Below are positions 715-15,598 of a stretch of 64,000 nt of DNA, piece after piece. The position numbers were made by a program, and so were the translations under genes. The stretch comes from a virus. Within the stretch, counting starts at the first letter, position 1. Every line of letters begins with the position of its first letter. Below the pieces are notes generated by a model. The model was not told the DNA's origin, did not search any database, and worked only from the letters and a program-made list of their open reading frames with translations. The stretch is from positions 49,839-113,838 of IMG/VR virus record IMGVR_UViG_3300036828_000667, one strand, 5' to 3'.

Positions 715-715
715 T

Positions 716-1230: not shown

Positions 1231-1233
1231 CCC

Positions 1234-1473
1234 ATGCCTATGGGACCTGACGACCATCTGGTTGAAACAATCAAGAACGTCCTCTGGAAAGATGAAGAAT
1301 TACTGGATAGGGCTATTCATAAGATAATAGAAAAGAGAATACATTTCATACTAGAACAGCACATAAACAATGGTTTGTCATCTAGACATATTTCAGAAGT
1401 TCTAGATGAATACATAACTTACCATATCAAAAGAATTCTCAGTTCGACTTTGGAACTGGAGGGAAAGGAGTAG
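1234..1473 (+). CDS. Hypothetical protein
   Basis: GAGGAG RBS, operon packing. Confidence 0.6.
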   Translation: MPMGPDDHLVETIKNVLWKDEELLDRAIHKIIEKRIHFILEQHINNGLSSRHISEVLDEYITYHIKRILSSTLELEGKE

Positions 1474-1559
1474 TGGTTCACGATTTGGTCTTTTTGCCAT
1501 TATTTAAACAGTAGGGAGGTCTAGATGTTGGCCGGCCCCTTTGGTAGAGTAGAGGCGAT

Positions 1560-2033
1560 ATGACTATTTACACTATCTACCATGTTCCTAATATAAAAGT
1601 AGGAGCAACCGATAATTTAAAAACTAGAATGGCTAGATACAAGTCTAGATACAAGGAGGTTGAGATAGAAATACTCTTGAAAATGAGATTCGAACAAGTA
1701 CCAGAATATGCAAGATGGTATATAGTAGGAACTTATGAATGGATATTTGCTGATATGTATGGATACCCTAGAGGTTTTCATTACTATATCAGCAGATATA
1801 GTAATAGAGTAAAACAAAGTCCATATAGCACTTTAGAACAAATTAAGTCTAATTACGGGAAACAACATGCAAATGATTACTTTAATCAAATTACTGTAAC
1901 AAACGAAACACTATGGAAATTCCTATCGTTGCTTTTAAATCAACAAAGTTACATAGAGAGACTTGTCAAAGAGATATTCCCAAATTCTTCTCCTCAATCC
2001 TTTCCTCTGGCACTCTTTCTCTTCACCAGCTAG
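1560..2033 (+). CDS. GIY-YIG-like nuclease-related protein (paralog of 49846-50550)
   Basis: IYHVPNIKVGAT.NLK.R...Y and EW.FAD.YGY.RG.HY match IYHIPGVKVGCT.NLK.R and EW.WAD.LGY.RG.HY in 49846-50550. Confidence 0.5.
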   Translation: MTIYTIYHVPNIKVGATDNLKTRMARYKSRYKEVEIEILLKMRFEQVPEYARWYIVGTYEWIFADMYGYPRGFHYYISRYSNRVKQSPYSTLEQIKSNYGKQHANDYFNQITVTNETLWKFLSLLLNQQSYIERLVKEIFPNSSPQSFPLALFLFTS

Positions 2034-2539
2034 TTAAATCACCAGTTAGTTAAGTCAGTAAAAGACGAGGGGAGTATGAGGGGAGTTTTTCAATAGTTTG
2101 TCAATTCTACTTAGGTATAGGTTTATATCACACTATGTTACAAACTGTAAGAATGGGATATACTTTAGACACGACAAAAAGCCCCATTAGACTATGTCTA
2201 GGGGTTTATGGTCATTTGGGGGTTGTTTTTAGGATGTAAGGAGGTGCTGTTGTGGATAGCCTCTTGGTTTTATCAGGCGCCTGATAAAATTCCCTGGATT
2301 ACCTGCGGTGCACCACCGTAACCCAGTATGGTTAGGAGAATAGCTTCCCCCTGGAATACAGGGGCCTGCTCGTCTATTAAAGATCCACGGGCCAGACCGT
2401 CAGTCGCTGGATTTTTCTCACCGTGGTAGCAGCCATGGCAGTCGCCGTTAGGTCGGCCCCATGGCACCGCTGTAACTCGCGGGTAAACGCATCTTCCATA
2501 TTAGAAAACGAACTGCTAGTCAACATCACTTGGAGATAA

Positions 2540-2602
2540 AATTGTGCGGTATGGGATGCATGGGGCAGGTCCGGCAGGGTAAGCGTCGGGGTGGGGTGGA
2601 CA
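2540..2602 (-). ncRNA. Pentamer-coded guide-like unit U2
   Basis: 11 GG/GC-NNN periods on plus strand; minus strand ends ACCGCACAATT; promoter at 2609-2637. Confidence 0.7.
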
Positions 2603-2608
2603 AAGCTT

Positions 2609-2637
2609 CATTACTATCATTGCAATCCATTGTCAAG
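2609..2637 (-). promoter_or_regulatory. Sigma70-type promoter driving U2
   Basis: CTTGAC-N17-GTAATG on minus strand. Confidence 0.5.
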
Positions 2638-2682
2638 AAGTCTAAAATCAAGCCTCCCGTCCTCCCCTGGCTGGAGCATAGG

Positions 2683-2877
2683 ATGAAAAAAGGCCCATAT
2701 CGCAGAAGAACCCTTGTCAGAAAATACAGGTTTCATCCCTATGAGAATTTTGAGTCAGGTAAGGGATGGAACCTTCCCCATAACAGAAAAAGGGTAAAGA
2801 AACATCATGGTCCAGCACTAAATAAACTAGGTCAATTAAGACGTTTTTGGATTACTGTTACAAGAACATACAGATGA
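2683..2877 (+). CDS. Basic hypothetical protein (MKKGPYRR...)
   Basis: GGAG upstream of ATG 2683; the track ORF start at 2530 runs through U2 and is probably too long. Confidence 0.45.
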   Translation: MKKGPYRRRTLVRKYRFHPYENFESGKGWNLPHNRKRVKKHHGPALNKLGQLRRFWITVTRTYR

Positions 2878-3239
2878 AAGACCTTACCTATCTCGACAAA
2901 TACAGAATGCCTATCCCTGAGGTCTGCCTTGTAGGAAGTGGTACAGTCGACCTAAAGTTCAACGGAGCCTTTGCATTTGCCATAAAAGGTGTTAGTGTTG
3001 TGGTAATAGCAGGACGCGGTAAGGGATGGGATCACGTATCAGTCTCTTGTGAAAACAGAACTCCAACTTGGGAAGAAATGGAAACGGTCAAGAGGATGTT
3101 CTTCAAAGACGATGAAGTAGCCATGCAATTGCATGTAGCTGTTGAGGATCACATCAATATGCACCCTTATTGTCTTCATTTATGGCGCAGTTACAATAAG
3201 CTTAGGCCAATTCCACTTCCACCAAAAGGATTCGTGTAA
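2847..3239 (+). CDS. Conserved phage protein (GWDHVSVS/PTWEEM/HP.CLHLW family)
   Basis: Recognisable widespread phage motif set; likely start ATG 2874. Confidence 0.8.
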   Translation: MDYCYKNIQMKDLTYLDKYRMPIPEVCLVGSGTVDLKFNGAFAFAIKGVSVVVIAGRGKGWDHVSVSCENRTPTWEEMETVKRMFFKDDEVAMQLHVAVEDHINMHPYCLHLWRSYNKLRPIPLPPKGFV

Positions 3240-3493
3240 TGAAACGAGCAGATTTCGTTAGAGCCTACGCAAATCGTTCTGGACTATCAGATAAGTGGGC
3301 AAACATAGGGTTGATAGATAGACATGATGGCTGGGTATTTGTAGCTCTGCCTTGTGTATGTGGTGAAGATGGTTGTCAGGGATGGGCCATGCTCTCAGCT
3401 GAGCAAGTCTTACACCACTTACAATTCAATGCTCCTGATGGGCTACGTGAAGCCTATATGAAATCTGTTGAAGACGAGGAAGCAAAGACATAG
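3239..3493 (+). CDS. Hypothetical protein (C.CG...C.GW)
   Basis: Overlapping stop/start, Cys motif. Confidence 0.65.
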   Translation: MKRADFVRAYANRSGLSDKWANIGLIDRHDGWVFVALPCVCGEDGCQGWAMLSAEQVLHHLQFNAPDGLREAYMKSVEDEEAKT

Positions 3494-3505
3494 GCATGAA
3501 TTGAT

Positions 3506-3775
3506 ATGAAGTATAGGCATTACAAACTACCGCAAAGAGGATATAGACACGACTGGAATGAAGCCAGAAGAATTCACGTATTTCTTCTAAGATGTGAAGG
3601 ATTGTCATATGGAGAAATTGCATTACGTCTTGGTGTAACCAGACAAGCAGCTAGAGAAATGTATCGTAGAGCAGCCCATATGTTAATGTGGGCATGGCGA
3701 CATATACTACAACCTCATACAATGATAGACCCAGAGTGTAGACTAGAGGCAGAGGAACATGAGAGCGACGAATAA
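3506..3775 (+). CDS. HTH DNA-binding protein (sigma region-4-like)
   Basis: EGLSYGEIALRLGVTRQAARE helix-turn-helix. Confidence 0.7.
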   Translation: MKYRHYKLPQRGYRHDWNEARRIHVFLLRCEGLSYGEIALRLGVTRQAAREMYRRAAHMLMWAWRHILQPHTMIDPECRLEAEEHESDE

Positions 3776-3974
3776 CCGTGACTTCCACCCAGTACCGATT
3801 TTAGGTGGAGATCACTGTCCGAAGTGTGGTAACATCATGCAAAGGTACACTCATAACCCAAAGTGGAAGCCTCTCCCTGGCCGTGGCTTCTACAAACACT
3901 GGGATCGGTGCATAGACTGTCGGCGATATTACAATCCAGCTGATGCCTATGTTAAAGGAAGTAAAGATGAGTGA
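3759..3974 (+). CDS. Small zinc-ribbon protein
   Basis: CPKC...CIDC. Confidence 0.6.
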   Translation: MRATNNRDFHPVPILGGDHCPKCGNIMQRYTHNPKWKPLPGRGFYKHWDRCIDCRRYYNPADAYVKGSKDE

Positions 3975-4155
3975 TGATTGTAAAAAGCGTCAACTTGCAA
4001 TGCTCATGATTGATGAAATAGAAAAATCATTGGCACGTGGCACTAAACATTACAACAAGAGTGGGAAGTTGCTAAAGACACCTAAGGCTGTCTTAGAATG
4101 CTTACTTAAAGACGGAAGTGTTGAACTCAAGTATAGGAAAGAGAAGGATGAATAG
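3943..4155 (+). CDS. Hypothetical protein
   Basis: Packed ORF, likely start at MSDD. Confidence 0.55.
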   Translation: MPMLKEVKMSDDCKKRQLAMLMIDEIEKSLARGTKHYNKSGKLLKTPKAVLECLLKDGSVELKYRKEKDE

Positions 4156-4360
4156 TGTAGTCAAATTACTGATAGAAATAGCTGGGGAGGTTGGAAGTGC
4201 TGTTGTGTTTGTAGCTGGTCTAAGAGCCTTAGCACTTTCTGTAGTTACAGAAGTAACCTCAACTTCCCCAGAGGAACGTGGTAAGATAAATAATCTGATA
4301 ATCAAAGCAATGGTGTTTATCGCAATTGCTTTTTCATTTCTCATACATACAAGACTATAG
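4118..4360 (+). CDS. Small membrane protein
   Basis: Two hydrophobic segments. Confidence 0.55.
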   Translation: MLNSSIGKRRMNSVVKLLIEIAGEVGSAVVFVAGLRALALSVVTEVTSTSPEERGKINNLIIKAMVFIAIAFSFLIHTRL

Positions 4361-4368
4361 GAGTCGAA

Positions 4369-4749
4369 ATGAAGCTAGTTGGATGTGTGGTTCTCTTATC
4401 GGTAGTCTTCTCCCCAGTTGCCTATTCTGAATTTGTCCCTGGTAATGTGTTTATTGAAAGCTGTAACAACCCTAGTCCTGAACGTCAGGCAGCTTGTATA
4501 GGTTTTACGGCAGGGGTTACCGATAGCTATCTCAGGTCTGGTCAATTTTGCTTACCACCAAATGTTACTCCAAAAGAGATTTCAGATTTCACGAAGTACT
4601 ACATCAACAAAACTGTTTCAATCCGCAATCAATCAGCCCTCATGATGGTGCTGTATGCATTGAAATCACGGTGGCCGTGTGTTAATAGTGGACCACGGAT
4701 GGTCTTCCAACTACCTCCCCAGTTCCAGTTTCAATTCCGTGGGTTCTAA
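4369..4749 (+). CDS. Rap1a/Tai-like secreted immunity-family protein
   Basis: Signal peptide, GN.F...C...C.G+..GV.D, FC.P, and WPC ending. Confidence 0.7.
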   Translation: MKLVGCVVLLSVVFSPVAYSEFVPGNVFIESCNNPSPERQAACIGFTAGVTDSYLRSGQFCLPPNVTPKEISDFTKYYINKTVSIRNQSALMMVLYALKSRWPCVNSGPRMVFQLPPQFQFQFRGF

Positions 4750-4761
4750 AGGAACAGTACG

Positions 4762-5025
4762 ATGATGACAAAAATCTACCTGATCGACCCGGGGGCATCA
4801 GACGGTTATCCTGGTCTTGTAAAAGAAATTGTCAGAGAGAACATCGAAGCGTTCGATATTGTCGAGTACACGAATTTATATGGAAAACATGGGTATTACG
4901 TGTTTGACGGCATGGTAAAAGATGATATCGTTTACAGACGGGTGATTCGCGTCGCTAGAATTGCAGAAAAGAAGGAACAAAAGAATGGCCAAGGCGGTCA
5001 GACGACCTCCGAAGGGACACCATGA
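4762..5025 (+). CDS. Hypothetical protein
   Basis: Packed ORF with RBS. Confidence 0.55.
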   Translation: MMTKIYLIDPGASDGYPGLVKEIVRENIEAFDIVEYTNLYGKHGYYVFDGMVKDDIVYRRVIRVARIAEKKEQKNGQGGQTTSEGTP

Positions 5026-5224
5026 TGGCAGTGGAATAAAACTTGCTGTCAAATTTACACCGAAGCTTTTTAAAAGAATAAACGAACGGGCAACCAAACA
5101 TAACAAAAACTTTTCAGAAATCGTGAATGAGACTTGTGAATGTGGTCTATTATGCTTGGAAGAATCGGAGCGGGACGAGCCTAATTATAAGACAGTGGTG
5201 AGCCAACATGAAGATCGGGCCTAG
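4961..5224 (+). CDS. Possible ribbon-helix-helix protein
   Basis: LAVKFTPKLFKRINERA...NFSEIV pattern. Confidence 0.45.
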   Translation: MQKRRNKRMAKAVRRPPKGHHDGSGIKLAVKFTPKLFKRINERATKHNKNFSEIVNETCECGLLCLEESERDEPNYKTVVSQHEDRA

Positions 5225-5374
5225 GTTCTAAAGCTTCCTGGACAGCCTAGGTCTGACGGTGGAGGAGTACAGGACTATACCTTAGTGCCCCCAGTACTCC
5301 TCCACTACACTATAAGGAATCCCATAGCAAATGACGAAGGGGGTTCCTAAACTGTAACACTAGGAGTAACTAAC

Positions 5375-5965
5375 ATGATGAAGCAAACCTCGTTGGCAAG
5401 GCATATAACCGTAGAGATTCCTAGTGAGAACTCAGCTGATGTTGACTTTCTTCATGAGCTAGAAGAAGCTCATGACCACGACAATTTGAAAGACGTAGGT
5501 GCTGGTGTCGAGAAAGCATTCAAGGACAGAGTTGAAAAAGAGTTCTCAGGACAAGACATTACACCAAAGACACGGGCGTCCATCACAGACTTCTGTATAT
5601 ATTTAATGTCGATTGCAAAATTTTACGGTTATGATCTTTTACTAGGTGGGTTTATTACTACTGTTCACGAAGACATGTTTTCTGTACGAACTCAACCTAC
5701 CAAAGGGATTACGGCTCTCATAGAGTCAACGTTCACGTATTTTGACGATGAGGGAAACTATAAACTCACTGCCAATGGTTTCATGAGAAGGGATTGGGCA
5801 ACTGCCCCAGACGATCCAGTCAGCCGACGTAATCAGATCCTGAGAGATAACAACGATATTTTTCCCGGATTGCAATACAGTAATGCCAACACCAATAAGC
5901 TCCATATTCATATAGAAATAACAGGACAGTTCCCGCTATTAATCCTCCCAGTTACCTACCAATAA
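5375..5965 (+). CDS. Hypothetical protein; C-terminal domain duplicated in the next gene
   Basis: AGGAG RBS; FTYF...G...L.A.G.MR.DWAT motif. Confidence 0.7.
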   Translation: MMKQTSLARHITVEIPSENSADVDFLHELEEAHDHDNLKDVGAGVEKAFKDRVEKEFSGQDITPKTRASITDFCIYLMSIAKFYGYDLLLGGFITTVHEDMFSVRTQPTKGITALIESTFTYFDDEGNYKLTANGFMRRDWATAPDDPVSRRNQILRDNNDIFPGLQYSNANTNKLHIHIEITGQFPLLILPVTYQ

Positions 5966-5999
5966 ATTATAGGGGCTGGGAAGATGGGGGGATTATTGT

Positions 6000-6260
6000 A
6001 TGTCCAATGTAATCAACTTACCTATAATGGTAAGAGCGAGATTCTCTTATTTTAATACCAAAGGTATATTTCAATTATCAGCAGACGGTCATATGAGGCA
6101 AGATTGGGCTACTCACTCCAATCTGCCACGGCCTAGACGTACCCAAATCATCCAAGACAATAAAGGAATGCCAGGAATGCCTGGAAGGGCTTCCGCGTAT
6201 TTCATACATATTGTCACACAGGATAAGAAACGAACTCTCGTACTTCCGGAGACACCTTGA
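6000..6260 (+). CDS. Paralog of the C-terminal domain of 5375-5965
   Basis: FSYFNTKGIFQLSADGHMRQDWAT vs FTYFDDEGNYKLTANGFMRRDWAT. Confidence 0.7.
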   Translation: MSNVINLPIMVRARFSYFNTKGIFQLSADGHMRQDWATHSNLPRPRRTQIIQDNKGMPGMPGRASAYFIHIVTQDKKRTLVLPETP

Positions 6261-6320
6261 ACAGGGAGGAAAATCAGAACTCAACATGAACAACAAGCAG
6301 AAAACCGTAATCACCTATAG

Positions 6321-6599
6321 ATGAAATACTCTAAGGATCGGAGACAAACCATGGATCACGCTGAACTTCTTGCTAACCTCAATACAGCACTAGACAACTT
6401 CGTGAACAGTAGTGATGGAACTAAGCAAGAACTGAAAGATGATCTCGAAGACTTTCGAGACGATATAGACGGACGTATCATGGCCCTGGAAGAAGAAATC
6501 GAGGAGGAGCAAGGCGAAGATACAGATGAAGATGAAGGAGATGACGGTGAGGAAGCGCCGATTGTAGAAACGGGAGAAATGGGAGAAGAGCCGAAGTAA
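6321..6599 (+). CDS. Highly acidic small protein
   Basis: D/E-rich; GGAG before ATG 6351. Confidence 0.7.
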   Translation: MKYSKDRRQTMDHAELLANLNTALDNFVNSSDGTKQELKDDLEDFRDDIDGRIMALEEEIEEEQGEDTDEDEGDDGEEAPIVETGEMGEEPK

Positions 6600-6607
6600 T
6601 AGAGATT

Positions 6608-6645
6608 AAGTCATCCTCTGTTTTTGAAATGACAGAGGATGACTT
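6608..6645. terminator. Stem-loop between a convergent gene and unit U3
   Basis: AAGTCATCCTCTGT...ACAGAGGATGACTT 14-bp inverted repeat. Confidence 0.7.
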
Positions 6646-6704
6646 GTGCGGTTTGGTTAGGAATGCAGTGGCTCGGCAGGGTTCGCTTCGGTTTGGTATG
6701 GTTC
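6644..6704 (-). ncRNA. Pentamer-coded guide-like unit U3
   Basis: 11 GG/GC-NNN periods on plus strand, ACCGCACAA handle, 3' hairpin, promoter at 6716-6744. Confidence 0.75.
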
Positions 6705-6715
6705 GAACATGCGGG

Positions 6716-6744
6716 ACGTAGCAGAACTTGACCGTCTTGTCAAA
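6716..6744 (-). promoter_or_regulatory. Sigma70-type promoter driving U3
   Basis: TTTGAC-N17-CTACGT on minus strand. Confidence 0.65.
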
Positions 6745-6754
6745 TGGGTGCAAA

Positions 6755-7345
6755 ATGTCCAAGAAGTTCTCAATATCAGTGGACCATAATGCATTAAGGC
6801 AATTTCCGTTTCTGGATCGACTCCAGAAACAACAATTCCCCATTTCAACCCTCAATGAAGTTATGTACGTTCTTGAAAATAGACCTGAAGGATTCAAAAT
6901 CGAGTTGGTTTATAGTGTATTGAAAGTGTCGTTAATTAACGTCAATAGAGACACCAATGACGACTACTTGGGATTGCCGAAGATTGAAGGTCAGTTGAAA
7001 GACCTGTGTGATGTGATCAGAGAGACCACGTCATATGGAACACGTGGGGGAGTCGACCCAAGGACACAAATATATTATAGTAGGAAGTCGTCTATTCTAC
7101 AGGGTAGTAACCTTAGTGATGATGCTCTGATAGCTCCTAATTATGTTTCTAATAGAGGTTTGAGAAAACGCCATCCTCTTGATCTTGTGTCCACAGAAGA
7201 GGTCGTTAAAAGAAGGGAACTTGCTAACCGACACTGGCAAGAACAGAAAAAAGAGCAACGAAGAAAACAACAGTCCAGTATCAACTCAAAAATCCGGAAT
7301 GCTCAGGACTTTTTGACAAGAAGCAATTTTGACAAGAAGCAATAA
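6755..7345 (+). CDS. Hypothetical protein; matched by unit U4
   Basis: Track ORF 6728-7345 with in-frame ATG at 6755. Confidence 0.7.
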   Translation: MSKKFSISVDHNALRQFPFLDRLQKQQFPISTLNEVMYVLENRPEGFKIELVYSVLKVSLINVNRDTNDDYLGLPKIEGQLKDLCDVIRETTSYGTRGGVDPRTQIYYSRKSSILQGSNLSDDALIAPNYVSNRGLRKRHPLDLVSTEEVVKRRELANRHWQEQKKEQRRKQQSSINSKIRNAQDFLTRSNFDKKQ

Positions 7346-7356
7346 TAATGTTAACC
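7328..7356 (+). promoter_or_regulatory. Sigma70-type promoter driving U4
   Basis: TTTGAC-N17-TTAACC(T). Confidence 0.55.
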
Positions 7357-7362
7357 TTCTTC

Positions 7363-7426
7363 GGCGAACCGGTCCAATCCGAACCGACCCTATCCCTACC
7401 GGACCCTTGCACAGCATACCGCACAT
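7363..7426 (+). ncRNA. Pentamer-coded guide-like unit U4
   Basis: 12 periods; decodes to EGNEDYLGL vs DTNDDYLGL in the upstream gene. Confidence 0.8.
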
Positions 7427-7429
7427 CTA

Positions 7430-7460
7430 CCCCTCAGGCTGTATTACACAGCCTGAGGGG
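7430..7460 (+). terminator. Intrinsic terminator after U4
   Basis: CCCCTCAGGCTGT...ACAGCCTGAGGGG followed by TTATTATT. Confidence 0.7.
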
Positions 7461-7483
7461 TTATTATTATTAGGAGGTTAGAG

Positions 7484-8080
7484 ATGGTGACCAAAGAAAT
7501 GGTAGATGAGTTCTGTAAGCATCTGATTGATGAAGGAAAGATCGTAGAAGCTGGGTGGCTAGGCTTTAAAATCATGGTGCTTGAACCTGTTGATCTCTCG
7601 GAGAATCAAGTCGAAGATATGAAAATGGCATTCTTTGGTGGTGCTTATCATCTGTTCACGTCGATGACAAGGATGTTAGACCCTGGCAAAGAGCCGTCAG
7701 ACAATGACATAAAGCGTATAGATCAAATCAATACAGAGCTTGAAGCATTCGTAGGAGTGTTTGAAGAAGAGCTAAGGAAACGTCAACAGAAACCACCTAT
7801 ATCAGAAGATCCAGCACCAACTCTAGGTGATGCGCCTATCGAACAAGAGTATCGTAGTAAAATGCAAGCTGTTGCCATGACCTTAGATAAATTCTTCAAT
7901 GGCGAGCTTGAAGGAAACGACAGACACACCGGATTTGTCCTACTAGTATTCCCCTTTGAAGAAAGGGAAGGACGGTGTAACTTCATTTCAAATGGTGCTG
8001 ATCGAGAGGATGTAGTCACACTTTTCAAAGAAATGATCCAAAAATTTTCTGGCCAACCAGATATAGTTGGACATGCTTAA
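7484..8080 (+). CDS. Two-domain hypothetical phage protein
   Basis: AGGAGG RBS; C-terminal half paralogous to 16148-16408. Confidence 0.8.
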   Translation: MVTKEMVDEFCKHLIDEGKIVEAGWLGFKIMVLEPVDLSENQVEDMKMAFFGGAYHLFTSMTRMLDPGKEPSDNDIKRIDQINTELEAFVGVFEEELRKRQQKPPISEDPAPTLGDAPIEQEYRSKMQAVAMTLDKFFNGELEGNDRHTGFVLLVFPFEEREGRCNFISNGADREDVVTLFKEMIQKFSGQPDIVGHA

Positions 8081-8091
8081 GGAGGTTAACA

Positions 8092-8730
8092 ATGACCAAA
8101 AAGGGACCGCCTAACGTTTTTTGTCTACTATGCAATGAAGGATTTGGAAACAATGTTCATCTAGGTCGTCACGTACTGCAAATGCATGGAATTAACTTTG
8201 CCGATTATGATTGGTACAAAGTACAGAATAACATCGAACCACCTTGCTGTGCCAATTGTCAAGGTCCAGCAAAGATACACTCAGGTCGATATATAAAATT
8301 TTGCAGCACTGAGTGTAGTAGCGCCGGCCATATGATTTCTGACGAAGCTAGAGAAAGAGTTGCGAAGAGTGCGAAGCTAGTAGGTCTAGCAAATCGTACA
8401 CATGGCGAAAGTAGTAAAGATAATCTGACACCTGAATATAGAGCGTATCACAGTATGCTCTCACGATGCTTGAACTCAGCTGACGCACGCTATCCTAATT
8501 ATGGCGGGAGAGGCATCAAAATCTGTGACCGTTGGCTTGGTGAAAATGGCTTCCGCCATTTTCTTGAAGATATGGGACGTAGACCGTCTAGCGACTTATC
8601 TCTTGATCGCTATCCCAACAATAATGGAAATTATGAGCCAAACAACTGCCGTTGGGCAACACGTAGCCAGCAACAGCGTAATAAGAGTCGTGTAAAATCA
8701 CTAGACAATCCTCCCGATATACTACCATGA
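8092..8730 (+). CDS. HNH-type homing endonuclease with N-terminal Zn fingers
   Basis: C2H2 finger, YGGRGIKICDRW, SLDR..NN.GNYEP.NCRWAT..QQ.RN. Confidence 0.85.
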   Translation: MTKKGPPNVFCLLCNEGFGNNVHLGRHVLQMHGINFADYDWYKVQNNIEPPCCANCQGPAKIHSGRYIKFCSTECSSAGHMISDEARERVAKSAKLVGLANRTHGESSKDNLTPEYRAYHSMLSRCLNSADARYPNYGGRGIKICDRWLGENGFRHFLEDMGRRPSSDLSLDRYPNNNGNYEPNNCRWATRSQQQRNKSRVKSLDNPPDILP

Positions 8731-9302
8731 AATCAAAAACAATAAAACTTATCAGGAACCGTAACGTCCCCTTACCTGGGGACGTATATATTAAGAGGCT
8801 TGCTGTGTATCGTGTCGTCATGTACGATGAGACTAACGATACTACACTATTCGCTACCACTAACGATATCATTACTATCTATGGTCAAATACCACGGTTG
8901 GAGATAAGAAAAAACGACTTTTACCCTTGTCCCTACCAGCTACTAGGTCCTGCCATTCAGGTATTCGAACTAGATGAAAAATACAGTGAAAAGAGTCTAG
9001 TAAACCTACAAGACTATCGCTTACAGCATGTCAAAACATATGAGAGGATCGGCCTACCTGAATTGTTTGAAGACATTGAAGACGCAAGGACTAGAGTTTA
9101 CACAGTGCCAGACGAGCAAGGAGAACAATTTCCTGGACTGAAAGGAAAGTCGTTCCAGGTATTGGTACCTTTCATGTGCATCTCAAAAGGGACATATAAA
9201 GAACGTTATCAGACACTTGACTTGCCAGCTGATAAGGGGTATTTCAAAGCAATGAGATATACGGCATGGCCAATCTTCTACGTCCCCAGTAGATTTGAAT
9301 AA
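8727..9302 (+). CDS. Hypothetical protein
   Basis: 191 aa, overlapping stop/start. Confidence 0.7.
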   Translation: MKSKTIKLIRNRNVPLPGDVYIKRLAVYRVVMYDETNDTTLFATTNDIITIYGQIPRLEIRKNDFYPCPYQLLGPAIQVFELDEKYSEKSLVNLQDYRLQHVKTYERIGLPELFEDIEDARTRVYTVPDEQGEQFPGLKGKSFQVLVPFMCISKGTYKERYQTLDLPADKGYFKAMRYTAWPIFYVPSRFE

Positions 9303-9377
9303 TCACTTGCGTCGTACCATCAGAGATGATAGGGAGCCAATCATGACATTCCTGGTGACGTGATATGAGGTAATTAT

Positions 9378-9584
9378 ATGAGACGGTCAGATGATTTGCT
9401 GATACTTTTAATTCGAGAACACCATATACAACTATCACCAAGAACTGTGAAATCACTACTAACTAGCATAGGTCTCTTGTCCAACAACAAATATCTAAGT
9501 GCAACTCAGGTGAAAAAGTTCAGAAAACCACGGATAAGTTCTAGTTCTAAAAAAGTAGCAGTAAAAAGAGGGAAAGTAACATGA
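9378..9584 (+). CDS. Small basic hypothetical protein
   Basis: GAGG RBS, overlaps next gene. Confidence 0.5.
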   Translation: MRRSDDLLILLIREHHIQLSPRTVKSLLTSIGLLSNNKYLSATQVKKFRKPRISSSSKKVAVKRGKVT

Positions 9585-9823
9585 CGAAGCATGTAATGAA
9601 TATTCTAGATCAAACTGGCCACACTACTATCGGATGGGATGCAGGCAACGAACAGGAAATAGCTATTGCTAAAGAAGCTTTCGATAGTGCTATAAAGAAA
9701 GGATACCATGCGTTTCACGTTATTGAAGAAAAGGGTGGAGAGACTAGACGTGGAGAACGTATGACAAGATTTGATTCTGACGCAGAACGGATGATCCTGA
9801 TGCCGCAATTACAAGGAGGTTGA
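9581..9823 (+). CDS. Small protein ending in a di-glycine (..PQLQGG)
   Basis: 80 aa, C-terminal GG, coupled to the next gene. Confidence 0.75.
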   Translation: MTKHVMNILDQTGHTTIGWDAGNEQEIAIAKEAFDSAIKKGYHAFHVIEEKGGETRRGERMTRFDSDAERMILMPQLQGG

Positions 9824-9824
9824 T

Positions 9825-10508
9825 ATGATATTTGCCGCCTATCAACGATCTATAGGCATCTCCACACCTCTCCCACAGTCTGTAATTTTTACAATGGCCG
9901 ACTCTATGACAAATACCTGTAGCTCAACCTATCCAACCTATCCAGTCTGGCATAATAACATAATAGTTTTTAACGACAGTACTCGTACATATAGTGTATA
10001 TAACCCCACCACCTGTACCAACAACACGGTTGCAAGCACCTGTTTTCCTATTATACTCCAATGGCCAGATTGGCATGATCACATTTCTATGCCAAACATT
10101 ATCCAAGAAAGGATGGAGGCAGAGAACGCTAGGCTAGAACTCCAAAGACAAGCTATTGCGGAAGCTAATAGAATTGAAATGGAGAGAGCTAAGGAAAGAA
10201 GACTTAGCTCTGAGAAGGCCAAGCAGTTACTTCTAGAACACCTAACGTCTGAACAACGTGAAACAGTTGAGAAGAATGGATGGTTTGTTATCGAAGGTGG
10301 TCGATCGAAGAAACGTTACCGGATAAGATCCAGTGGTGTTACTGGTAATGTTGAGGAGATGGATGGAGAAAGAGTCATAGCCAAATATTGTTGTCACATA
10401 TCACATAGTTATCCACGCTCGGACCATCATCTCACCCAAAAGCTCATGCTAGAATGGGATGAAGAAACCTTCTTACGACTAGCTAATAAAACTGCGATAG
10501 GCTCATAG
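9825..10508 (+). CDS. Conserved hypothetical protein (coiled coil plus C-terminal YCCH/P..D domain)
   Basis: AGGAGG RBS, globular C-terminal domain. Confidence 0.75.
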   Translation: MIFAAYQRSIGISTPLPQSVIFTMADSMTNTCSSTYPTYPVWHNNIIVFNDSTRTYSVYNPTTCTNNTVASTCFPIILQWPDWHDHISMPNIIQERMEAENARLELQRQAIAEANRIEMERAKERRLSSEKAKQLLLEHLTSEQRETVEKNGWFVIEGGRSKKRYRIRSSGVTGNVEEMDGERVIAKYCCHISHSYPRSDHHLTQKLMLEWDEETFLRLANKTAIGS

Positions 10509-10835
10509 TCTCTCAAATGACAACCAGCAACCTGTACGGTTATGCTCGGCCTTGGTGGAGACAAGCAAGCGTAGCCTTTGATCTTTGACCAGTTCAAGAA
10601 ACTCCTCGCAGTGTGGTAGTCGCAAAAACTCATTGGTTGCTTCAGTAAGATCGTCTAGGGGAACGAATGAATCCTGCCAGTGCGCACCAATGAGCAATGT
10701 GATCTGGACTGTCAGTTCGTCTTTTTGGGTAGTCATGTGCTCTCGCCTGTAATAAGGTGTGTAAAAAGGAATGTAACAATGAAAAAACGAATTATCAAGA
10801 AGGCCATGCGAAAAAATATGGTGTGGTGCACCCAT
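10503..10835 (-). CDS. Hypothetical protein (likely start MTTQKDE)
   Basis: Minus-strand ORF, GAGAG before the internal ATG. Confidence 0.45.
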   Translation of the reverse strand: MGAPHHIFSHGLLDNSFFHCYIPFYTPYYRREHMTTQKDELTVQITLLIGAHWQDSFVPLDDLTEATNEFLRLPHCEEFLELVKDQRLRLLVSTKAEHNRTGCWLSFERL

Positions 10836-11063
10836 GAAGTCTATGCCCCAAACATATTACCGTGTTCAGATCTTAACTGCCCCTTCAAGGAAGACAAAGC
10901 CCGCTTAGCCAAGCCAAAAGAACTCAAGCAATGCAGGTCATTTCAAATAACCAAGCCTACTGACGAGTTCGAAAACTCGGTTAGCGTCCTCATAGCAAAG
11001 AGAAAAGCAGTACCTGAGATAATACCAGATAAAACCATTAGACGAAAGATAGCAGTCGCCTGA
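10680..11063 (+). CDS. Basic Cys-containing hypothetical protein (likely start MKKRII)
   Basis: AAGGA before internal ATG; abuts next gene. Confidence 0.55.
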   Translation: MRTNEQCDLDCQFVFLGSHVLSPVIRCVKRNVTMKKRIIKKAMRKNMVWCTHEVYAPNILPCSDLNCPFKEDKARLAKPKELKQCRSFQITKPTDEFENSVSVLIAKRKAVPEIIPDKTIRRKIAVA

Positions 11064-11064
11064 G

Positions 11065-11490
11065 ATGGTGAAGATACGTAATGTCGACCTGAGTGATCTA
11101 GTCGACCAATTCAAGGACTTCACAAAAGTCCTTGGACCCGAGGAGGTCAAAATCCTCTCTGATGCTGATCTCCTCCTACATGTTACCATACCTCATGACG
11201 AACCTGGGAAGCTAGCCTACTTAAGCAAGAGCGCTCAAATCCAATCTAAGCTCAATAACCTTCTTTCACGACTATCCTATATTTTTAATATGACCACTAT
11301 CGATAGAGATAGTTATTGGGGAAACTTGATAGAATCACAAGAAGTCGAAGGCCGAGAAAAACGATACATAGCCTTAACACGTGATCCTAAATTCAGAGAT
11401 TTAGAAGAGACCAAGTCAGCCTTGGAAGTCATACGGGATCACACTAGTAGTTTACTTTGGATACTCAAAACCATAGCCGGGAGGCTGTAA
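11065..11490 (+). CDS. Helical hypothetical protein (possibly UvsY-like)
   Basis: Size and coiled-coil pattern only. Confidence 0.6.
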   Translation: MVKIRNVDLSDLVDQFKDFTKVLGPEEVKILSDADLLLHVTIPHDEPGKLAYLSKSAQIQSKLNNLLSRLSYIFNMTTIDRDSYWGNLIESQEVEGREKRYIALTRDPKFRDLEETKSALEVIRDHTSSLLWILKTIAGRL

Positions 11491-11491
11491 A

Positions 11492-11773
11492 TTGGCAAAA
11501 GCAACAACGCGAGAACGTCAACCATTGACTAAGCGTGCGTTGCGTATTTATATAATAGTCAAACAGTACGGTCCCCCAGTAGGACTTCCTATGTCCGTAG
11601 TGGACATACAGAAATATATTCCAGAAATAACCGTTGATTGTATCAGTCCACGTATGCCAGAGCTTCGTGAAAAAAGATGGCTTCTGCGTATTGGAAAAGC
11701 ACCGCGTCCAAATCGAACTGGACGTTCGCAAAGCCAGTGGGTTTATAGAGTAATTAACGAGGATGAACTTTGA
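11492..11773 (+). CDS. Winged-helix-like DNA-binding protein
   Basis: ISPRMPELREK...R..RTGR....Y pattern. Confidence 0.6.
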   Translation: MAKATTRERQPLTKRALRIYIIVKQYGPPVGLPMSVVDIQKYIPEITVDCISPRMPELREKRWLLRIGKAPRPNRTGRSQSQWVYRVINEDEL

Positions 11774-11810
11774 GTGGCAACAGATGGACGTGTAGCTCAG
11801 CGGTAGCATC

Positions 11811-12338
11811 ATGGCAAAACACAATGAAGAAAATGATCTATGGTTCCTTAGCAAAATCGCAGATGGAACCATTTCTGTATCCGAAGACGGAGAGGTCTTC
11901 AACAACAAGACAGGTAGATATATAGGCGCTCAACAAGGAGCAGGTTACCTTAAGATTTCTATGGCAAAGAGAGTTGATGGAAAACTTGTTATTGTCCATA
12001 TGCAAATCCATAGGTTAGTATGGCTACATTTCAAAGGACCTATTCCTCAGGGACTAGAAGTCAATCACAAAGATTTAAACAAATCGAACCCACGATTGTC
12101 AAATCTAGATTTACAAACACCCAAAGGGAATGCTGAACATGCCACCTTAAATGGTGTTGACCGACGCTCAAAAACAGGAGGCCATAAAAACGCTAATGCC
12201 AAATTTACACGTGAACAAGTCGAGATGCTACGGAGACAATTCAAATCGAAAGAAACCACAGTTAAAGAAATAATGATAAACTATAGTGTTTCTAAGCCAG
12301 TTGTGTATTGGATGCTGGAAGGAAGGACCTATAAATAG
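11811..12338 (+). CDS. HNH homing endonuclease
   Basis: HRLVW..F.G.IP.GLEVNHKD.NK.N....NL. Confidence 0.9.
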   Translation: MAKHNEENDLWFLSKIADGTISVSEDGEVFNNKTGRYIGAQQGAGYLKISMAKRVDGKLVIVHMQIHRLVWLHFKGPIPQGLEVNHKDLNKSNPRLSNLDLQTPKGNAEHATLNGVDRRSKTGGHKNANAKFTREQVEMLRRQFKSKETTVKEIMINYSVSKPVVYWMLEGRTYK

Positions 12339-12363
12339 CTACTAACCTGTAGGATTTATAACA

Positions 12364-12693
12364 ATGGTAGAATTTGGAGCGTTCATTCGCAAAGAACGAG
12401 AGGCCAGAGATATTAGCTTACGAAAGATGGCCAAGAAGATTGGTGTAAGTGCAACCTATCTATCACAAGTGGAACTTGATAGGTTCCCACCACCAACTGA
12501 GGATAGGGTAAAGGCTATTGCCAAGATCATTGACTGTAATCCTGACTACCTACTGGCCAAAGCTGGACGGATCTCGACCGACATTTCCGACATCATTAAA
12601 CGTCGTCCGATCGAGCTTTCGATGCTTATTCGAGCCGCCAAGTACTTGAGTAACGATGACATTGCCCAATTGATTAATGCGGCGTCAGCGTAG
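12364..12693 (+). CDS. XRE-family HTH transcriptional regulator
   Basis: FGAFIRKERE...SLRKMA..IGVSATYLSQVE. Confidence 0.9.
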   Translation: MVEFGAFIRKEREARDISLRKMAKKIGVSATYLSQVELDRFPPPTEDRVKAIAKIIDCNPDYLLAKAGRISTDISDIIKRRPIELSMLIRAAKYLSNDDIAQLINAASA

Positions 12694-12787
12694 GAGCCTC
12701 ACTGGTAAGTCTTTTAGGCCTGGAGGCCCTACCACCTGGCCTGTCCATAATTCGCGTCAGTGGGCTTCCAACAAAGAGGAGAGGGTA

Positions 12788-12973
12788 ATGCGTTGCGATC
12801 GGTGTCAGGGAACAGGCTGGGATCGGGCAGGAGTACACCCTGTACTTGGGCCGCTCTTCGATTGCAACCATCCGTGTACTGAATGCGGCGGGTCAGGCAT
12901 CGCCCACTGTTGCGACGGCATCTGCGAACAGCCTTCAATTGACAAGTCTATAGATGACAAGCTAACATCTTGA
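12788..12973 (+). CDS. Small DnaJ-type zinc-finger protein
   Basis: CDRCQGTG...CTECGGSG; GGAGAGG RBS. Confidence 0.65.
   Translation: MRCDRCQGTGWDRAGVHPVLGPLFDCNHPCTECGGSGIAHCCDGICEQPSIDKSIDDKLTS
12938..12968 (+). promoter_or_regulatory. Sigma70-type promoter driving U5
   Basis: TTGACA-N18-TAACAT. Confidence 0.55.
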
Positions 12974-13571: not shown

Positions 13572-13641
13572 GTCGAACCGCTGCCTTGCTTGCCAAACCG
13601 GGCCAAGCCGGCGCGGACCAAACCTCCGCACACCGCACAAT
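13572..13641 (+). ncRNA. Pentamer-coded guide-like unit U6
   Basis: 13 periods decoding to EALLKGKGGKSTA, the peptide encoded at 13756-13794. Confidence 0.9.
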
Positions 13642-13695: not shown

Positions 13696-14337
13696 ATGCT
13701 AATTTCAGTCACGATCTCCGGAATCCGACCTTTAATCCTCGACGCGTTTTCCGAGGAAGCGTTGCTTAAGGGGAAGGGAGGAAAGAGTACAGCCCAGCCC
13801 AAGGAACTGAGTCCCTTGGATCAAGCCAAGCGTAGGTTATACTATAATGGAGATGGTACCGACGTTCCTATATTCCCAGCAGACAACCTACTCAGCTGTA
13901 TCATCGCTGCCGGGCGGTTTATCAAGGTCGGGAAAAGGCAACTAACTACTCGCGACAGTACGACAGTAACTTCATTCCTACAGATATCAGAACTATATCT
14001 TCCCATTAGGTCGATAGATGGATGGCGAGTCGACTCCAGGAGCATCGTCAACCCGTCTACAAAAGGTCGTCACATATGCTACCGTCCCATCTTTGACGAC
14101 TGGGAGTTAGATTTCACGCTCGACATCGATACGAATGAAGCGAGCGACAGCTTGGTTAGACAGTTGATTGATAGAGCAGGTAGGTTTATCGGGATCGGGG
14201 TCATGCGGCCCGAAAGGAAGCGGCAGTATGGGCAATACGTGGTGCGCTGCTGGGATTGCCGTTCAGAACATGAAGAGCTTGACAACATACCAAAACTTGC
14301 TAAGAAAACTAAGACTAGATCGAAAGAACTAGTCTAA
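13696..14337 (+). CDS. Stand-alone RAMP / Cas7-like RNA-binding protein, candidate effector of the pentamer guides
   Basis: N-terminal strand ISGIRPLIL, PIFPADNLLSCI (cf. RAMP P.IPGSSLKG), C-terminal Gly-rich loop GIGVMRPERKRQYGQYVV; AGGAG RBS. Confidence 0.75.
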   Translation: MLISVTISGIRPLILDAFSEEALLKGKGGKSTAQPKELSPLDQAKRRLYYNGDGTDVPIFPADNLLSCIIAAGRFIKVGKRQLTTRDSTTVTSFLQISELYLPIRSIDGWRVDSRSIVNPSTKGRHICYRPIFDDWELDFTLDIDTNEASDSLVRQLIDRAGRFIGIGVMRPERKRQYGQYVVRCWDCRSEHEELDNIPKLAKKTKTRSKELV

Positions 14338-14467
14338 CACTGGTTCATCGCGGACCGTACCGGAGCGTGCCATGCCCGTCCCCGCCGAGCCCGACCAAAC
14401 CAGACCCAACCTACGCGGACCCAGCCTATCCTTAGCGTAGCACACCGCACAGTTAAGGCCAAAACCA

Positions 14468-14511
14468 GAAGGAAGGAGATACGGAAATGAAACCACGCAT
14501 CTCCTTCCTTC
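14468..14511 (+). terminator. Stem-loop 3' of unit A
   Basis: GAAGGAAGGAGAT...ATCTCCTTCCTTC. Confidence 0.6.
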
Positions 14512-15110
14512 AAACCCAAGTTTCGAACAATCCATGCCACTGCAAACCGCGCCAGCCCTATGCCTACCACTGTGAACCGCTCCACACCATTCTTTTATCA
14601 ATTATCAAGTCAACACTCCGAACCAGACCCCGCCTTACCCAACAGCACCCCACCAAACCGGACCGACCCACTCCAATGTGCACCTCAGCAGACCGAAGCA
14701 CACCATACTTTATCAATTGCCTTCCCGACCCGAGCTATGCCCAACCGACCCGACCCACTCCGGGCCGCACCCCTCCCTCCCATCCCGCAGCACACCATAC
14801 TTTATTTCATTACGACTCTCCGGCCCTACGCCAACCACACCAGCCCGGAGCGTGCCATACCGCACCATACTTTTATCATTTCAATGCGCACCGTCCCTCA
14901 CCGTGCCATCTCTCACCCGACCATACCATCCCTCCCCACCTCGGCCCGGACCCCGCCGATGCAAACCACACCATACTTTATCAATTTTCAGAACCATCCC
15001 GACCGTACCAGTGCGCGCCATTCCAATGCAGCCCTCGCCTCCGCATGTCAGGCCGCCCCGACCCATGCCGCACCAAACCACACTTTCTTTATCAACTAAG
15101 GAGAACCAGC

Positions 15111-15311
15111 ATGACCACACATCGTCCCACATTCGAAGACTGGCAGCTAGACTTCACTTTGGATTATAATGAAACTGAAATAGATGAAGGTACTATACGT
15201 AAGCTAATCGAAGTAGTAGCTGGAACGCACATAGGACTTGGCTCTATGCGCCCAGAACGACATGGACCCTATGGACAGTTTAAGATCAAGGAATGGACTC
15301 CACATTCTTAG
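15111..15311 (+). CDS. 66-aa truncated paralog of the RAMP protein C-terminus
   Basis: AAGGAG RBS; RPTFEDWQLDFTLD...IGLGSMRPERHGPYGQF aligns with RPIFDDWELDFTLD...IGIGVMRPERKRQYGQY. Confidence 0.8.
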   Translation: MTTHRPTFEDWQLDFTLDYNETEIDEGTIRKLIEVVAGTHIGLGSMRPERHGPYGQFKIKEWTPHS

Positions 15312-15598
15312 TCTTATCCATCTCTGCTTACCGTAGCCCTCATCACCGCACCCGTGAGCACCGACCCATGCCTGAGCCTACCTCAGCATACCCAACCGCA
15401 GCAACCCGGTGCGAACCAAACCACACTATTTTTTATACAATTTCAACTTACCGTCCCGGCCCGAGCCAGTCCATCGTGCGCCGACCCGTCGCTCCCCATA
15501 CCGCACTATACTTTATTCATTACCAACCATGCCATACCATGCCATTCCGGAACGCTGCCCTCCGGTCCACACCACACTTTCTTTAGGAGTTTAACCAG

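What the first reader, a model, noticed from the sequence alone, without database searches (positions are those of the whole stretch)
6950..7426. Unit U4 decodes to a variant of the gene immediately upstream
U4 (7363-7422) decodes to gaa ggt aat gaa gac tat cta gga ctt = EGNEDYLGL. Gene 6755-7345 at 6950-6976 is gac acc aat gac gac tac ttg gga ttg = DTNDDYLGL. Both Leu codons are switched from CTN to TTG. This is the weakest of the four matches (6/9 identical, two D/E swaps), but it is again the adjacent gene and the same genomic orientation.
Basis: seen in the sequence. Interest (0 to 1): 0.7.

Follow-up and report, generated by a model that had tools for sequence, protein, structure and literature searches.

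The report
Phage VIPR guide beside its target
Unit U4 is a guide-RNA gene of a phage VIPR system, a CRISPR-like silencer first described in 2026; it spells the neighbouring gene as rival sister phages write it, not the phage's own altered copy, so it is a real example of a known kind with some unusual details.

Summary
U4 (7361-7425) is a 5-base-periodic tract, three variable bases plus CC. With the CC removed it reads EGNEDYLGL, and the adjacent gene reads DTNDDYLGL at 6950-6976. That site is the single best match for U4 in the whole 113.8-kb genome.

The explanation is already in print as VIPR (bioRxiv 10.64898/2026.04.26.720920, .720927 and 2026.10.15.759431). A lone Cas7-like Vipr protein is loaded with pentamer-repeat guide RNAs that read codon positions 1-2 of double-stranded DNA. 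The vipr gene lies at 13696-14337.

- Three of 16 homologs of the gene carry exactly EGNEDYLGL.
- One syntenic relative (L012) matches U4 at 18 of 18 read bases, and two others at 17 of 18.
- The resident copy matches only 14 of 18. It differs by two Leu CTN-to-TTG switches and a Gly-to-Thr change.

U4 most likely silences sister phages' alleles while its own linked allele escapes.

Three features are unusual for this clade:
- The guides appear to be written on the C-rich strand.
- The third base also tracks the target's codon.
- About 29 guides are spread over the genome, and ten of them sit beside their own near-self site.

This scan has already found guide-beside-target cases, and one C-rich array, on other genomes. 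Interest is moderate.

The parts
6755..7345 (+). Resident gene of unknown function (196 aa) whose non-self alleles U4 spells
   Evidence: ORF. It has 16 homologs in metagenomic phage contigs, 53-83% identical, and they start at the same MSKKF motif. No Pfam or PHROG family matches. The AlphaFold model has low confidence (pLDDT 66.8).
6950..6976 (+). Near-self site: resident version (DTNDDYLGL) of the sequence U4 spells; inferred escape allele
   Evidence: Unique best first-two-base match to U4 in the genome, 14/18. It differs from U4 at GG>AC (Gly>Thr) and at two Leu codons, CTN>TTG. N68, D70, L72, G73 and L74 are invariant among homologs.
7312..7343 (+). Perfect 16-base tandem duplication (TTTGACAAGAAGCAAT twice) at the gene's last codons; each copy carries a TTGACA box
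   Evidence: Read directly. The second TTGACA (7329-7334) is the predicted -35 box of U4.
7329..7357 (+). Predicted sigma-70-type promoter of U4: TTGACA, 17-base spacer, TAACCT
   Evidence: Sequence. TTGAC lies 25-50 bases upstream of the tract, in the C-rich sense, in 13 of 29 units against 1.06 expected. Consensus promoters sit before the units at 12972 and 17190.
7361..7410 (+). U4 guide tract: 10 pentamers (NNN + CC/GC). The nine at 7366-7410 carry the code GA GG AA GA GA TA CT GG CT
7411..7425 (+). Conserved 3' handle ACAGC ATACC GCACA, shared by the other units in the form ACACCGCACA
   Evidence: Flanks of all 29 units laid side by side.
7429..7471 (+). 14-pair hairpin followed by a T-run: intrinsic terminator and probable 3' tail of the U4 RNA
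   Evidence: Terminator scan; fold energy -31.7 kcal/mol.
13696..14337 (+). vipr gene (P0001, 213 aa): the Cas7-like protein that would be loaded with U4
   Evidence: phrog_4652, E 2e-16. BLASTP to the SUSP1 Vipr gives E 7e-10. The AlphaFold model (pLDDT 84) matches Csm3/Cas7 RAMP proteins, Foldseek E 9e-7, probability 1.0.
13575..13634 (+). Unit upstream of vipr (E17); it spells vipr residues 21-32 (12/12 amino acids, 20/24 read bases)
14347..15573 (+). Array of about 10 guide units downstream of vipr. The first (14347-14446) spells the Vipr glycine-rich loop (17/20 amino acids, 34/40 read bases)

Best explanation
U4 is a solo guide-RNA gene (vrRNA) of this phage's VIPR system.

Inferred steps:
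- U4 is transcribed from its own promoter inside the last codons of gene 6755-7345 and ends at the hairpin terminator at 7429-7471.
- The phage's Vipr protein (13696-14337) polymerises on the RNA, one protomer per pentamer. It holds the constant CC and presents the variable bases.

Shown in print for the SUSP1 system: such a filament binds double-stranded DNA in codon register and blocks transcription.

Shown here:
- U4's read bases fit the allele of the neighbouring gene carried by related phages (EGNEDYLGL; 18/18 in L012).
- They fit the resident allele less well (14/18), because of two Leu codon-family switches and a Gly-to-Thr change.

Inferred function: in a mixed infection U4 silences a sister phage's copy of this conserved gene while the phage's own copy escapes. 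Tight linkage keeps the guide and its escape allele together through recombination.
For: System:
- P0001 is a Vipr homolog with a RAMP fold.
- Relatives L009 and L010 carry the same gene followed by pentamer arrays.
- The VIPR papers describe pentamer vrRNAs of 9-16 repeats with a 3' tail, a two-read/one-skipped rule aligned to wobble positions, targets on either strand, and rival phages as targets.

U4:
- It has nine to ten pentamers, a handle and a hairpin.
- Its match is in codon register and is the unique genome-wide best hit, in the adjacent gene.
- Homolog alleles fit better than the resident one: three peptide-exact; 18/18, 17/18 and 17/18 against 14/18 at the DNA level.
- L012 and L013 are syntenic relatives with no unit at that place.

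Generality:
- Ten units lie within 63-400 bases of their near-self site.
- For the unit at genome 16673, homolog alleles of the form TDGMYTFAIKIQYST would fit 15/17 codons, inferred from their protein sequences, against 11/17 for the resident.
- Leu/Ser/Arg codon families are switched in 8 of 11 same-residue pairs, against about 0.47 expected.
- Within concordant two-fold codons the wobble base is identical in only 12 of 40 pairs (p = 0.008).
Against: - There are no expression data. Strand, ends and protein loading are all inferred.
- For U4 alone the escape argument is weak. Two TTG Leu codons would occur by chance about 13% of the time given this genome's codon usage, and the region is conserved, so high matches in homologs partly follow from protein conservation.
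- No target matching all 27 bases was found. The read-base pattern has no exact hit in IMG/VR.
- The guides appear C-rich in the promoter-defined sense, whereas published vrRNAs are G-rich.
- How many mismatches this Vipr tolerates is unknown, so 14/18 might still bind.
Confidence: 0.85

Rival explanations
1. Autoregulation: U4 acts on the resident gene itself. The imperfect match gives tunable self-repression of the gene in whose 3' end it sits. Likewise E17 and the first array unit would feed back on vipr.
For: - Several near-self matches reach or pass the 80% read-base threshold that the VIPR paper used to call targets: 0.83, 0.85, 0.85 and 0.88 (threshold).
- Adjacency is equally expected for a cis-regulatory loop.
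Against: - U4's match to the resident is only 14/18 (78%), with mismatches spread across the site.
- Homolog alleles fit better.
- Wobble bases and Leu/Ser/Arg families are preferentially different from the resident, which points to avoidance rather than tuning.
- The paper reports that disturbing NN pairing abolished silencing.
Confidence: 0.08
2. Strand sub-claim, not exclusive with the main reading: the functional RNA is the opposite, G-rich strand (GG/GC + NNN), as in published VIPR systems. In that case the conserved ACACCGCACA would be a 5' handle.
For: - All published types are described with G-based motifs.
- Vipr homology argues for a conserved way of holding the RNA.
- Some tail hairpins fold slightly better in the antisense direction.
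Against: - TTGAC lies 25-50 bases upstream in the C-rich sense in 13 of 29 units against 1.06 expected, with a TA-starting -10 box 17-18 bases after it. There is no such enrichment in the other sense.
- U4's hairpin has its T-run on the + strand only.
- Four G-U pairs in two tail stems exist only in the C-rich sense.
- In SUSP1 and two Gordonia phages the G-rich sense is on the vipr strand, whereas in G000 and L009 the C-rich sense is. This goes with a change of the G-contacting loop residues, D177-W178 or E-W, to V169-M170.
Confidence: 0.2
3. Relic or chance: U4 is a decayed guide with no living target, and its likeness to the adjacent gene is coincidence or a leftover.
For: - The peptide-level z-score for U4 alone is only 2.0.
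- There is no exact hit in IMG/VR.
Against: - U4 has an intact nine-pentamer CC register, promoter, handle and terminator.
- The unique best genome-wide hit is in the adjacent gene and in codon frame.
- One relative matches perfectly at the 18 read bases.
- The same pattern holds for nine other units.
Confidence: 0.04
4. The units are decoded into peptides, by five-base codons or by removal of CC from the RNA, giving fragments of neighbouring proteins.
For: - Matches are at amino-acid level with synonymous differences.
- The third base follows the purine/pyrimidine class that the amino acid requires.
Against: - The units have no start codon or ribosome-binding site.
- Nine decoded units contain stop triplets.
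- One unit matches only when reverse-complemented.
- The amino-acid-level pattern follows directly if the guides copy diverged homologous alleles, and the Vipr gene and the published mechanism account for everything seen.
Confidence: 0.005

Closest known systems
VIPR systems (Vipr protein + vrRNA), type II of Escherichia phage SUSP1 and a Pseudomonas fulva prophage; bioRxiv 10.64898/2026.04.26.720920 and 10.64898/2026.04.26.720927
   Same: - A lone small RAMP protein, homologous by sequence and fold.
- Guides built of tandem pentamers with fixed and variable positions, 9-16 repeats and a 3' tail.
- One guide upstream of vipr and an array downstream.
- Target matches in codon register, with the non-read position on the wobble base, on either strand.
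- Rival phages as the targets.
   Different: - The fixed part here is two bases (C/G then C), on the strand complementary to GGY as judged from promoters.
- The third base is variable (A 44, C 19, G 16, T 21%, against 83% A in SUSP1 when written in the same C-rich sense) and tracks the target codon.
- The tail is a short ACACCGCACA handle plus a simple hairpin or T-rich run, not a pseudoknot.
- The loop residues that contact the guanines in SUSP1 (D177, W178) are V and M in this clade.
- About 29 guides are dispersed over the genome instead of sitting only at the vipr locus.
- The paper found no self hits at 80% or more, whereas this genome has several near-self hits.
Solo (orphan) vrRNAs of SUSP1-family phages and F5 satellites; bioRxiv 10.64898/2026.10.15.759431
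   Same: - Stand-alone guides with their own expression signals.
- Guides against the early codons and the end of relatives' vipr genes; E17 and the first array unit here do the same.
- Self-match scores lower than non-self scores, which avoids autoimmunity.
   Different: - Those solo guides sit at the former vipr locus of phages that have lost vipr, or on satellites.
- Here the phage keeps vipr, and the solo guides lie next to the resident homolog of each target, in ordinary genes such as 6755-7345 and the terminase.
- I found no statement of guide/escape-allele linkage in the main texts I searched.
Non-canonical VIPR repeat motifs; bioRxiv 10.64898/2026.10.21.760802, and NNNGG/YNNNG/NNNNG repeats in the methods of 10.64898/2026.04.26.720920
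   Same: - Divergent Vipr-like folds paired with 5-base-periodic arrays whose fixed positions differ from GGY.
- An NNNGG class is mentioned.
   Different: - Those reports give motifs only.
- In the text I could read, no targeting rule is given for a three-variable-base class, and no C-rich sense is described.
Poison-antidote and homing-type selfish elements (for example, phage homing endonucleases with resistant resident target sites)
   Same: An agent that harms the non-self allele is tightly linked to a resident allele that is immune through a few, mostly silent, changes.
   Different: - The agent here is a transcription-blocking RNA guide, not a nuclease.
- No cleavage or gene conversion is shown.
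- This is an analogy only.

Membership tests
VIPR system | A Vipr protein: a small stand-alone RAMP (RRM core, glycine-rich loop, thumb) homologous to the described Vipr proteins | tested here: met
   - P0001 (13696-14337) gives BLASTP E 7e-10 to the SUSP1 Vipr over the YRPIF...G-loop region.
- Its AlphaFold model (pLDDT 84) matches Csm3 and type VII Cas7, Foldseek E 9e-7, probability 1.0.
- R130/P131 and R171/P172 align with SUSP1 R138/P139 and R179/P180.
VIPR system | Guide made of about 9-16 tandem pentamers in which fixed bases alternate with hypervariable bases | tested here: met
   - U4 has 9-10 pentamers in strict register.
- Across 29 units in the genome, position 5 is C in 98% and position 4 is C or G in 99% of 389 pentamers, and positions 1-3 are variable.
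VIPR system | Canonical constant triplet GGY on the RNA strand | tested here: not met
   - In the promoter-defined sense the constant part is (C/G)C, and the third base is not restricted to one class (R 60%, Y 40%).
- Even on the other strand the motif would be G(G/C)+NNN, not GGY.
- Non-canonical motifs are reported for other VIPR clades, so this lowers 'canonical type II', not 'VIPR'.
VIPR system | Invariable structured 3' tail after the repeat tract | tested here: met
   - A conserved ACACCGCACA-like handle follows every tract.
- In U4, E17, the first array unit and five others, a 12-14-pair hairpin comes next.
- No pseudoknot was found.
VIPR system | Targets match the variable dinucleotides with one base skipped, in codon register, skip on the wobble position | tested here: met
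   - U4 against L012 is 18/18; against L011 and L013, 17/18; all in the gene's reading frame.
- The antisense unit at 18360 also places its third base on the terminase gene's wobble positions.
VIPR system | Own genome spared (self match lower than non-self match) | tested here: met
   - The resident site matches 14/18, against 17-18/18 in relatives.
- Caveat: four other units reach 83-88% against their near-self sites.
VIPR system | Guide RNA is expressed, binds Vipr and silences matching DNA | not testable with these tools
   Only promoter and terminator predictions are available.
VIPR system | Accessory vap gene next to vipr | tested here: inconclusive
   - The array follows vipr directly.
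- The small ORFs after the array (15599-16408) have no Pfam match.
- A 66-aa Vipr C-terminal fragment lies inside the array.
CRISPR-Cas | Identical direct repeats of 20-50 bases separated by spacers, with cas1/cas2 or an effector module | tested here: not met
   - There are no such repeats. The units are 5-base-periodic and bounded by promoters and handles.
- The only Cas-like gene is the lone RAMP.
- Rfam gave no hit in 1-20000.

The most novel reading that the evidence does not exclude
In this Vipr clade the guide is written on the C-rich strand and uses a three-plus-two code: all three codon bases of each pentamer are matched to the target and only the CC is hidden. The published code is two-plus-three with one target base skipped. 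The phage deploys such guides as about 29 promoter-driven genes. Many of these are welded to an escape-recoded resident allele, so each guide and allele pair behaves as a killer-rescue cassette that can spread through sister-phage populations.
Probability: 0.4. Interest if true: 0.7.

Novelty: new variant of a known kind. Interest (0 to 1): 0.45.

Why it matters
VIPR was described only in 2026 and its natural biology is still being mapped. This phage adds three points.
- It gives a clean natural example of a guide linked to its own escape allele. Because the wobble base is not what gives escape, the resident gene escapes through Leu codon-family switches, the only kind of silent change that alters the read bases. 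This is directly testable with reporter constructs.
- The third pentamer base follows the target's codon in this clade, which would mean a different pairing geometry from the solved SUSP1 filament. That matters for anyone who wants to engineer these small proteins as programmable DNA binders.
- Promoter evidence suggests the guides are C-rich, together with a change in the loop residues that grip the guanines in SUSP1. This hints that Vipr proteins can switch which bases they anchor.

None of this changes the known principle, so the value is that of an informative variant.

Tried and rejected
- Rfam, E-value mode, on 1-20000: no family.
- blastn of 5300-9300 against 50,697 phage genomes: no match.
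- IMG/VR exact scans with the read-base patterns of U4 and E17, and of two array units (14717 and 14883): 0 hits each. The natural targets of the array units therefore remain unknown.
I could not fetch the DNA of P0097, P0098 and P0100, the three homologs that carry EGNEDYLGL exactly. The metagenome scan returned other homologs instead.
- Function of gene 6755-7345: Pfam and PHROGs gave nothing. The AlphaFold model is poor. The protein atlas gave only TM of about 0.3 to Tex-like proteins, which I do not credit.
- Homologs of the 137-aa gene beside the unit at genome 47329: the 50%-clustered library holds no allele closer than the resident.
- Scanning all G000 units against the related 147.5-kb and 47.6-kb phage records found only U4 (17/18 core) and the first array unit (32/40 on the relative's vipr) above background.
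- Five-base codons or CC-removing RNA editing: rejected (see rivals).
- A CRISPR-type array: rejected, because there are no direct repeats.
- Tail-hairpin energies in the two senses: mixed and not decisive.

Full report
**What is there**

Positions 7366-7410 are nine pentamers in perfect register, each made of three variable bases followed by CC (the last by GC). One weaker pentamer precedes them. A conserved handle, ACAGC ATACC GCACA (7411-7425), follows them. With the last two bases of each pentamer removed, the tract reads GAA GGT AAT GAA GAC TAT CTA GGA CTT, which is EGNEDYLGL. Gene 6755-7345 reads GAC ACC AAT GAC GAC TAC TTG GGA TTG, which is DTNDDYLGL, at 6950-6976 and in frame. Every detail in the finding is correct.

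**Is it more than chance?**

The window is part of a 113,838-base IMG/VR virus record. That record holds about 29 such units on both strands. I decoded each unit and searched all six reading frames of the genome.
- For nine units the best hit in the whole genome lies 63-400 bases from the unit. U4 is one of them.
- A tenth unit, at 18360, matches the terminase gene tail 115 bases away in the antisense direction.
- Scoring only the first two bases of each triplet, U4's unique best hit among about 227,600 positions is 6950-6976, at 14 of 18.
- By itself U4 is significant at roughly the 1% level. As one of ten, it is beyond doubt.

**What it is**

- A small stand-alone RAMP protein, Vipr, polymerises on guide RNAs (vrRNAs). 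Each vrRNA consists of 9-16 pentamers of the form GGY plus NN, followed by a 3' tail.
- The NN bases pair with double-stranded DNA while every third target base is skipped. In natural targets the skipped base is the codon wobble position.
- Targets lie on either strand, and binding silences transcription of rival phages and satellites.
- A companion structural paper shows one protomer per repeat.

The gene at 13696-14337 (P0001) is a Vipr homolog.
- It matches phrog_4652.
- BLASTP against the SUSP1 Vipr, which I located in KT454805.2 at 28474-29061, gives E 7e-10.
- A confident model matches Csm3 and Cas7 RAMP proteins at Foldseek E 9e-7.
- As in SUSP1, one unit lies upstream of vipr and an array lies downstream.
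- Two IMG/VR relatives carry the same gene followed by pentamer arrays.

U4 is therefore a solo vrRNA gene.

The gene has 16 homologs in metagenomic phage contigs. At the homologous position P0097, P0098 and P0100 read REGNEDYLGL, which is the decoded U4 string exactly. The resident DT...D version is unique.

I could obtain DNA for other homologs. At the 18 read bases the matches to U4 are:
- L012: 18 of 18.
- L011 and L013: 17 of 18.
- The resident: 14 of 18.

Over all 27 bases the figures are 21, 22, 19 and 17. L012 and L013 are syntenic with the window upstream of the gene and carry no unit after it. The resident's mismatches are GG to AC (Gly to Thr) and CT to TT at both Leu codons. So the guide fits sister phages' alleles and not its own neighbour.

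**Does this generalise?**

- For the unit at genome position 16673, homolog alleles of the form TDGMYTFAIKIQYST would fit 15 of 17 codons, inferred from their protein sequences, against 11 of 17 for the resident.
- The two units flanking vipr spell vipr residues 21-32 (12 of 12) and the glycine-rich loop (17 of 20). They resemble the resident far more than any of 94 homologs. Their targets must therefore be very close kin.
- The October 2026 preprint reports the same two target zones on vipr for solo vrRNAs of SUSP1-family phages. It also reports self-match scores below non-self scores.
- Across the nine near-self pairs, Leu, Ser and Arg codons that encode the same residue sit in different codon families in 8 of 11 cases, against about 0.47 expected.
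- Among two-fold codons of the same class, the wobble base is identical in only 12 of 40 pairs (p = 0.008).
- The resident genes therefore look recoded away from their guides.

**Unusual features of this clade**

1. *Strand.*
   - In the C-rich sense, 13 of 29 units have TTGAC 25-50 bases upstream, against 1.06 expected. A TA-starting -10 box lies 17-18 bases after it.
   - Most of the remaining units are internal to arrays.
   - U4's hairpin has its T-run only on the + strand.
   - Two tail stems contain G-U pairs only in this sense.
   - In SUSP1 and in Gordonia phages Pipp and Ecliptus the G-rich sense lies on the vipr strand. In this genome and in L009 the C-rich sense does.
   - This goes with a change in the loop residues that contact the two guanines in SUSP1: D177-W178 in SUSP1 and E-W in the Gordonia phages, but V169-M170 in this clade.
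   - I put about 0.8 on C-rich guides. Without RNA data this remains an inference.
2. *Third base.*
   - In SUSP1, written in the same sense, the third pentamer base is A in 83% of pentamers. Here it is A 44, C 19, G 16, T 21%.
   - In near-self pairs its purine/pyrimidine class agrees with the resident codon in 42 of 46 split codon boxes (permutation p below 5e-5). In four-fold boxes it agrees in only 16 of 32.
   - Across all units, TA is followed by a pyrimidine 18 times and by a purine 5 times, although purines make up 60% overall.
   - So the third base carries codon information from the target. Either it is read, giving a three-plus-two code, or guides are born as copies of target sequence.
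   - U4's third bases fit the E-G-N-E-D-Y allele of P0097-type homologs rather than the D-G-N-D-D-Y allele of L012.
3. *Dispersal.* Guides are spread over the genome, and ten of them are linked to a near-self site. I did not find this in the main texts of the preprints.

**Relation to earlier work in this scan**

First-stage notes on this genome had proposed a RAMP plus pentamer-guide system and a guide-plus-recoded-allele strategy. My tests bear both out. On other genomes the scan has already reported at least eight VIPR guides sitting beside a gene whose rival allele they spell, and one C-rich VIPR array. The architecture is therefore recurrent and not peculiar to this phage.

**Verdict**

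- The mechanism is a published one.
- U4 is a solo VIPR guide aimed at sister alleles of the adjacent gene, with the resident allele as its escape variant (confidence 0.85).
- What is new is limited to the clade's variant code and strand, and to the extent of dispersal.
- Not shown: expression, loading, silencing, mismatch tolerance, and the function of the target gene.

Noticed in passing
window 7312-7343: There is a perfect 16-base tandem duplication (TTTGACAAGAAGCAAT twice) in the last codons of gene 6755-7345. The second copy restores the family's usual FDKK(Q) C-terminus and supplies the -35 box of the U4 promoter. The promoter is thus built from the conserved Phe-Asp-Lys codons.
   Followed up: partly
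window 15111-15311: A 66-aa ORF inside the guide array is a copy of the C-terminal third of Vipr, including the glycine-rich loop (phrog_4652, E 1.9e-9). It may be a truncated paralog or a remnant of a second vipr gene.
   Followed up: partly
window 18360-18449 and 18564-18617: This unit matches the + strand over the last codons of the terminase large-subunit gene (minus strand) at 28/36 read bases. Reverse-complemented, it decodes to VQSLYDTPSNVY, 12/12 with the resident, then diverges. Its third bases fall on the gene's wobble positions even in the antisense direction.
   Followed up: yes
window 6650-6704 (minus strand) with hairpin 6610-6645: A guide unit lies on the minus strand between two plus-strand genes. 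It has its own TTGACA box at about 6735-6740 (minus strand), and a tail hairpin that could double as the terminator of gene 6321-6599. No near-self site was found for it.
   Followed up: partly
P0001 residues 169-170; alignment A3: The glycine-rich loop reads G-V-M-R-P in nearly all of the 30 family members aligned (V169 and M170 are at least 90% conserved). It reads G-D-W-R-P in SUSP1, G-E-W-R-P in two Gordonia phages, and G-D-Y/F-R-P in the most distant family members (P0091, P0095). The change coincides with the array lying C-rich on the vipr strand.
   Followed up: partly
L009 4605-5858 (IMGVR_UViG_3300036791_000741): A related phage has 12-13 guide units of 8-32 pentamers directly behind vipr. 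They are separated only by a constant ACAGGCGACAGCC and have no promoters between them, which resembles the 'staggered' array layout mentioned in the VIPR paper. Their targets are unknown.
   Followed up: no
G001 = IMGVR_UViG_3300036832_001373 (147.5 kb): A more distant relative carries homologs of at least two targeted genes but no pentamer units on my scan (C-rich pattern, both strands, score threshold 14). Its allele of the U4 site matches U4 at 17/18. It is a plausible kind of victim genome.
   Followed up: partly
window 8092-8730 (+) and 16418-16969 (-): The second is an HNH plus AP2-domain homing-endonuclease-like gene (Pfam E 4e-14 and 4e-11). The first was not run through a family search and only looks AP2-like by eye. 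The second lies just after the VIPR array on the opposite strand. No link to VIPR was tested.
   Followed up: no
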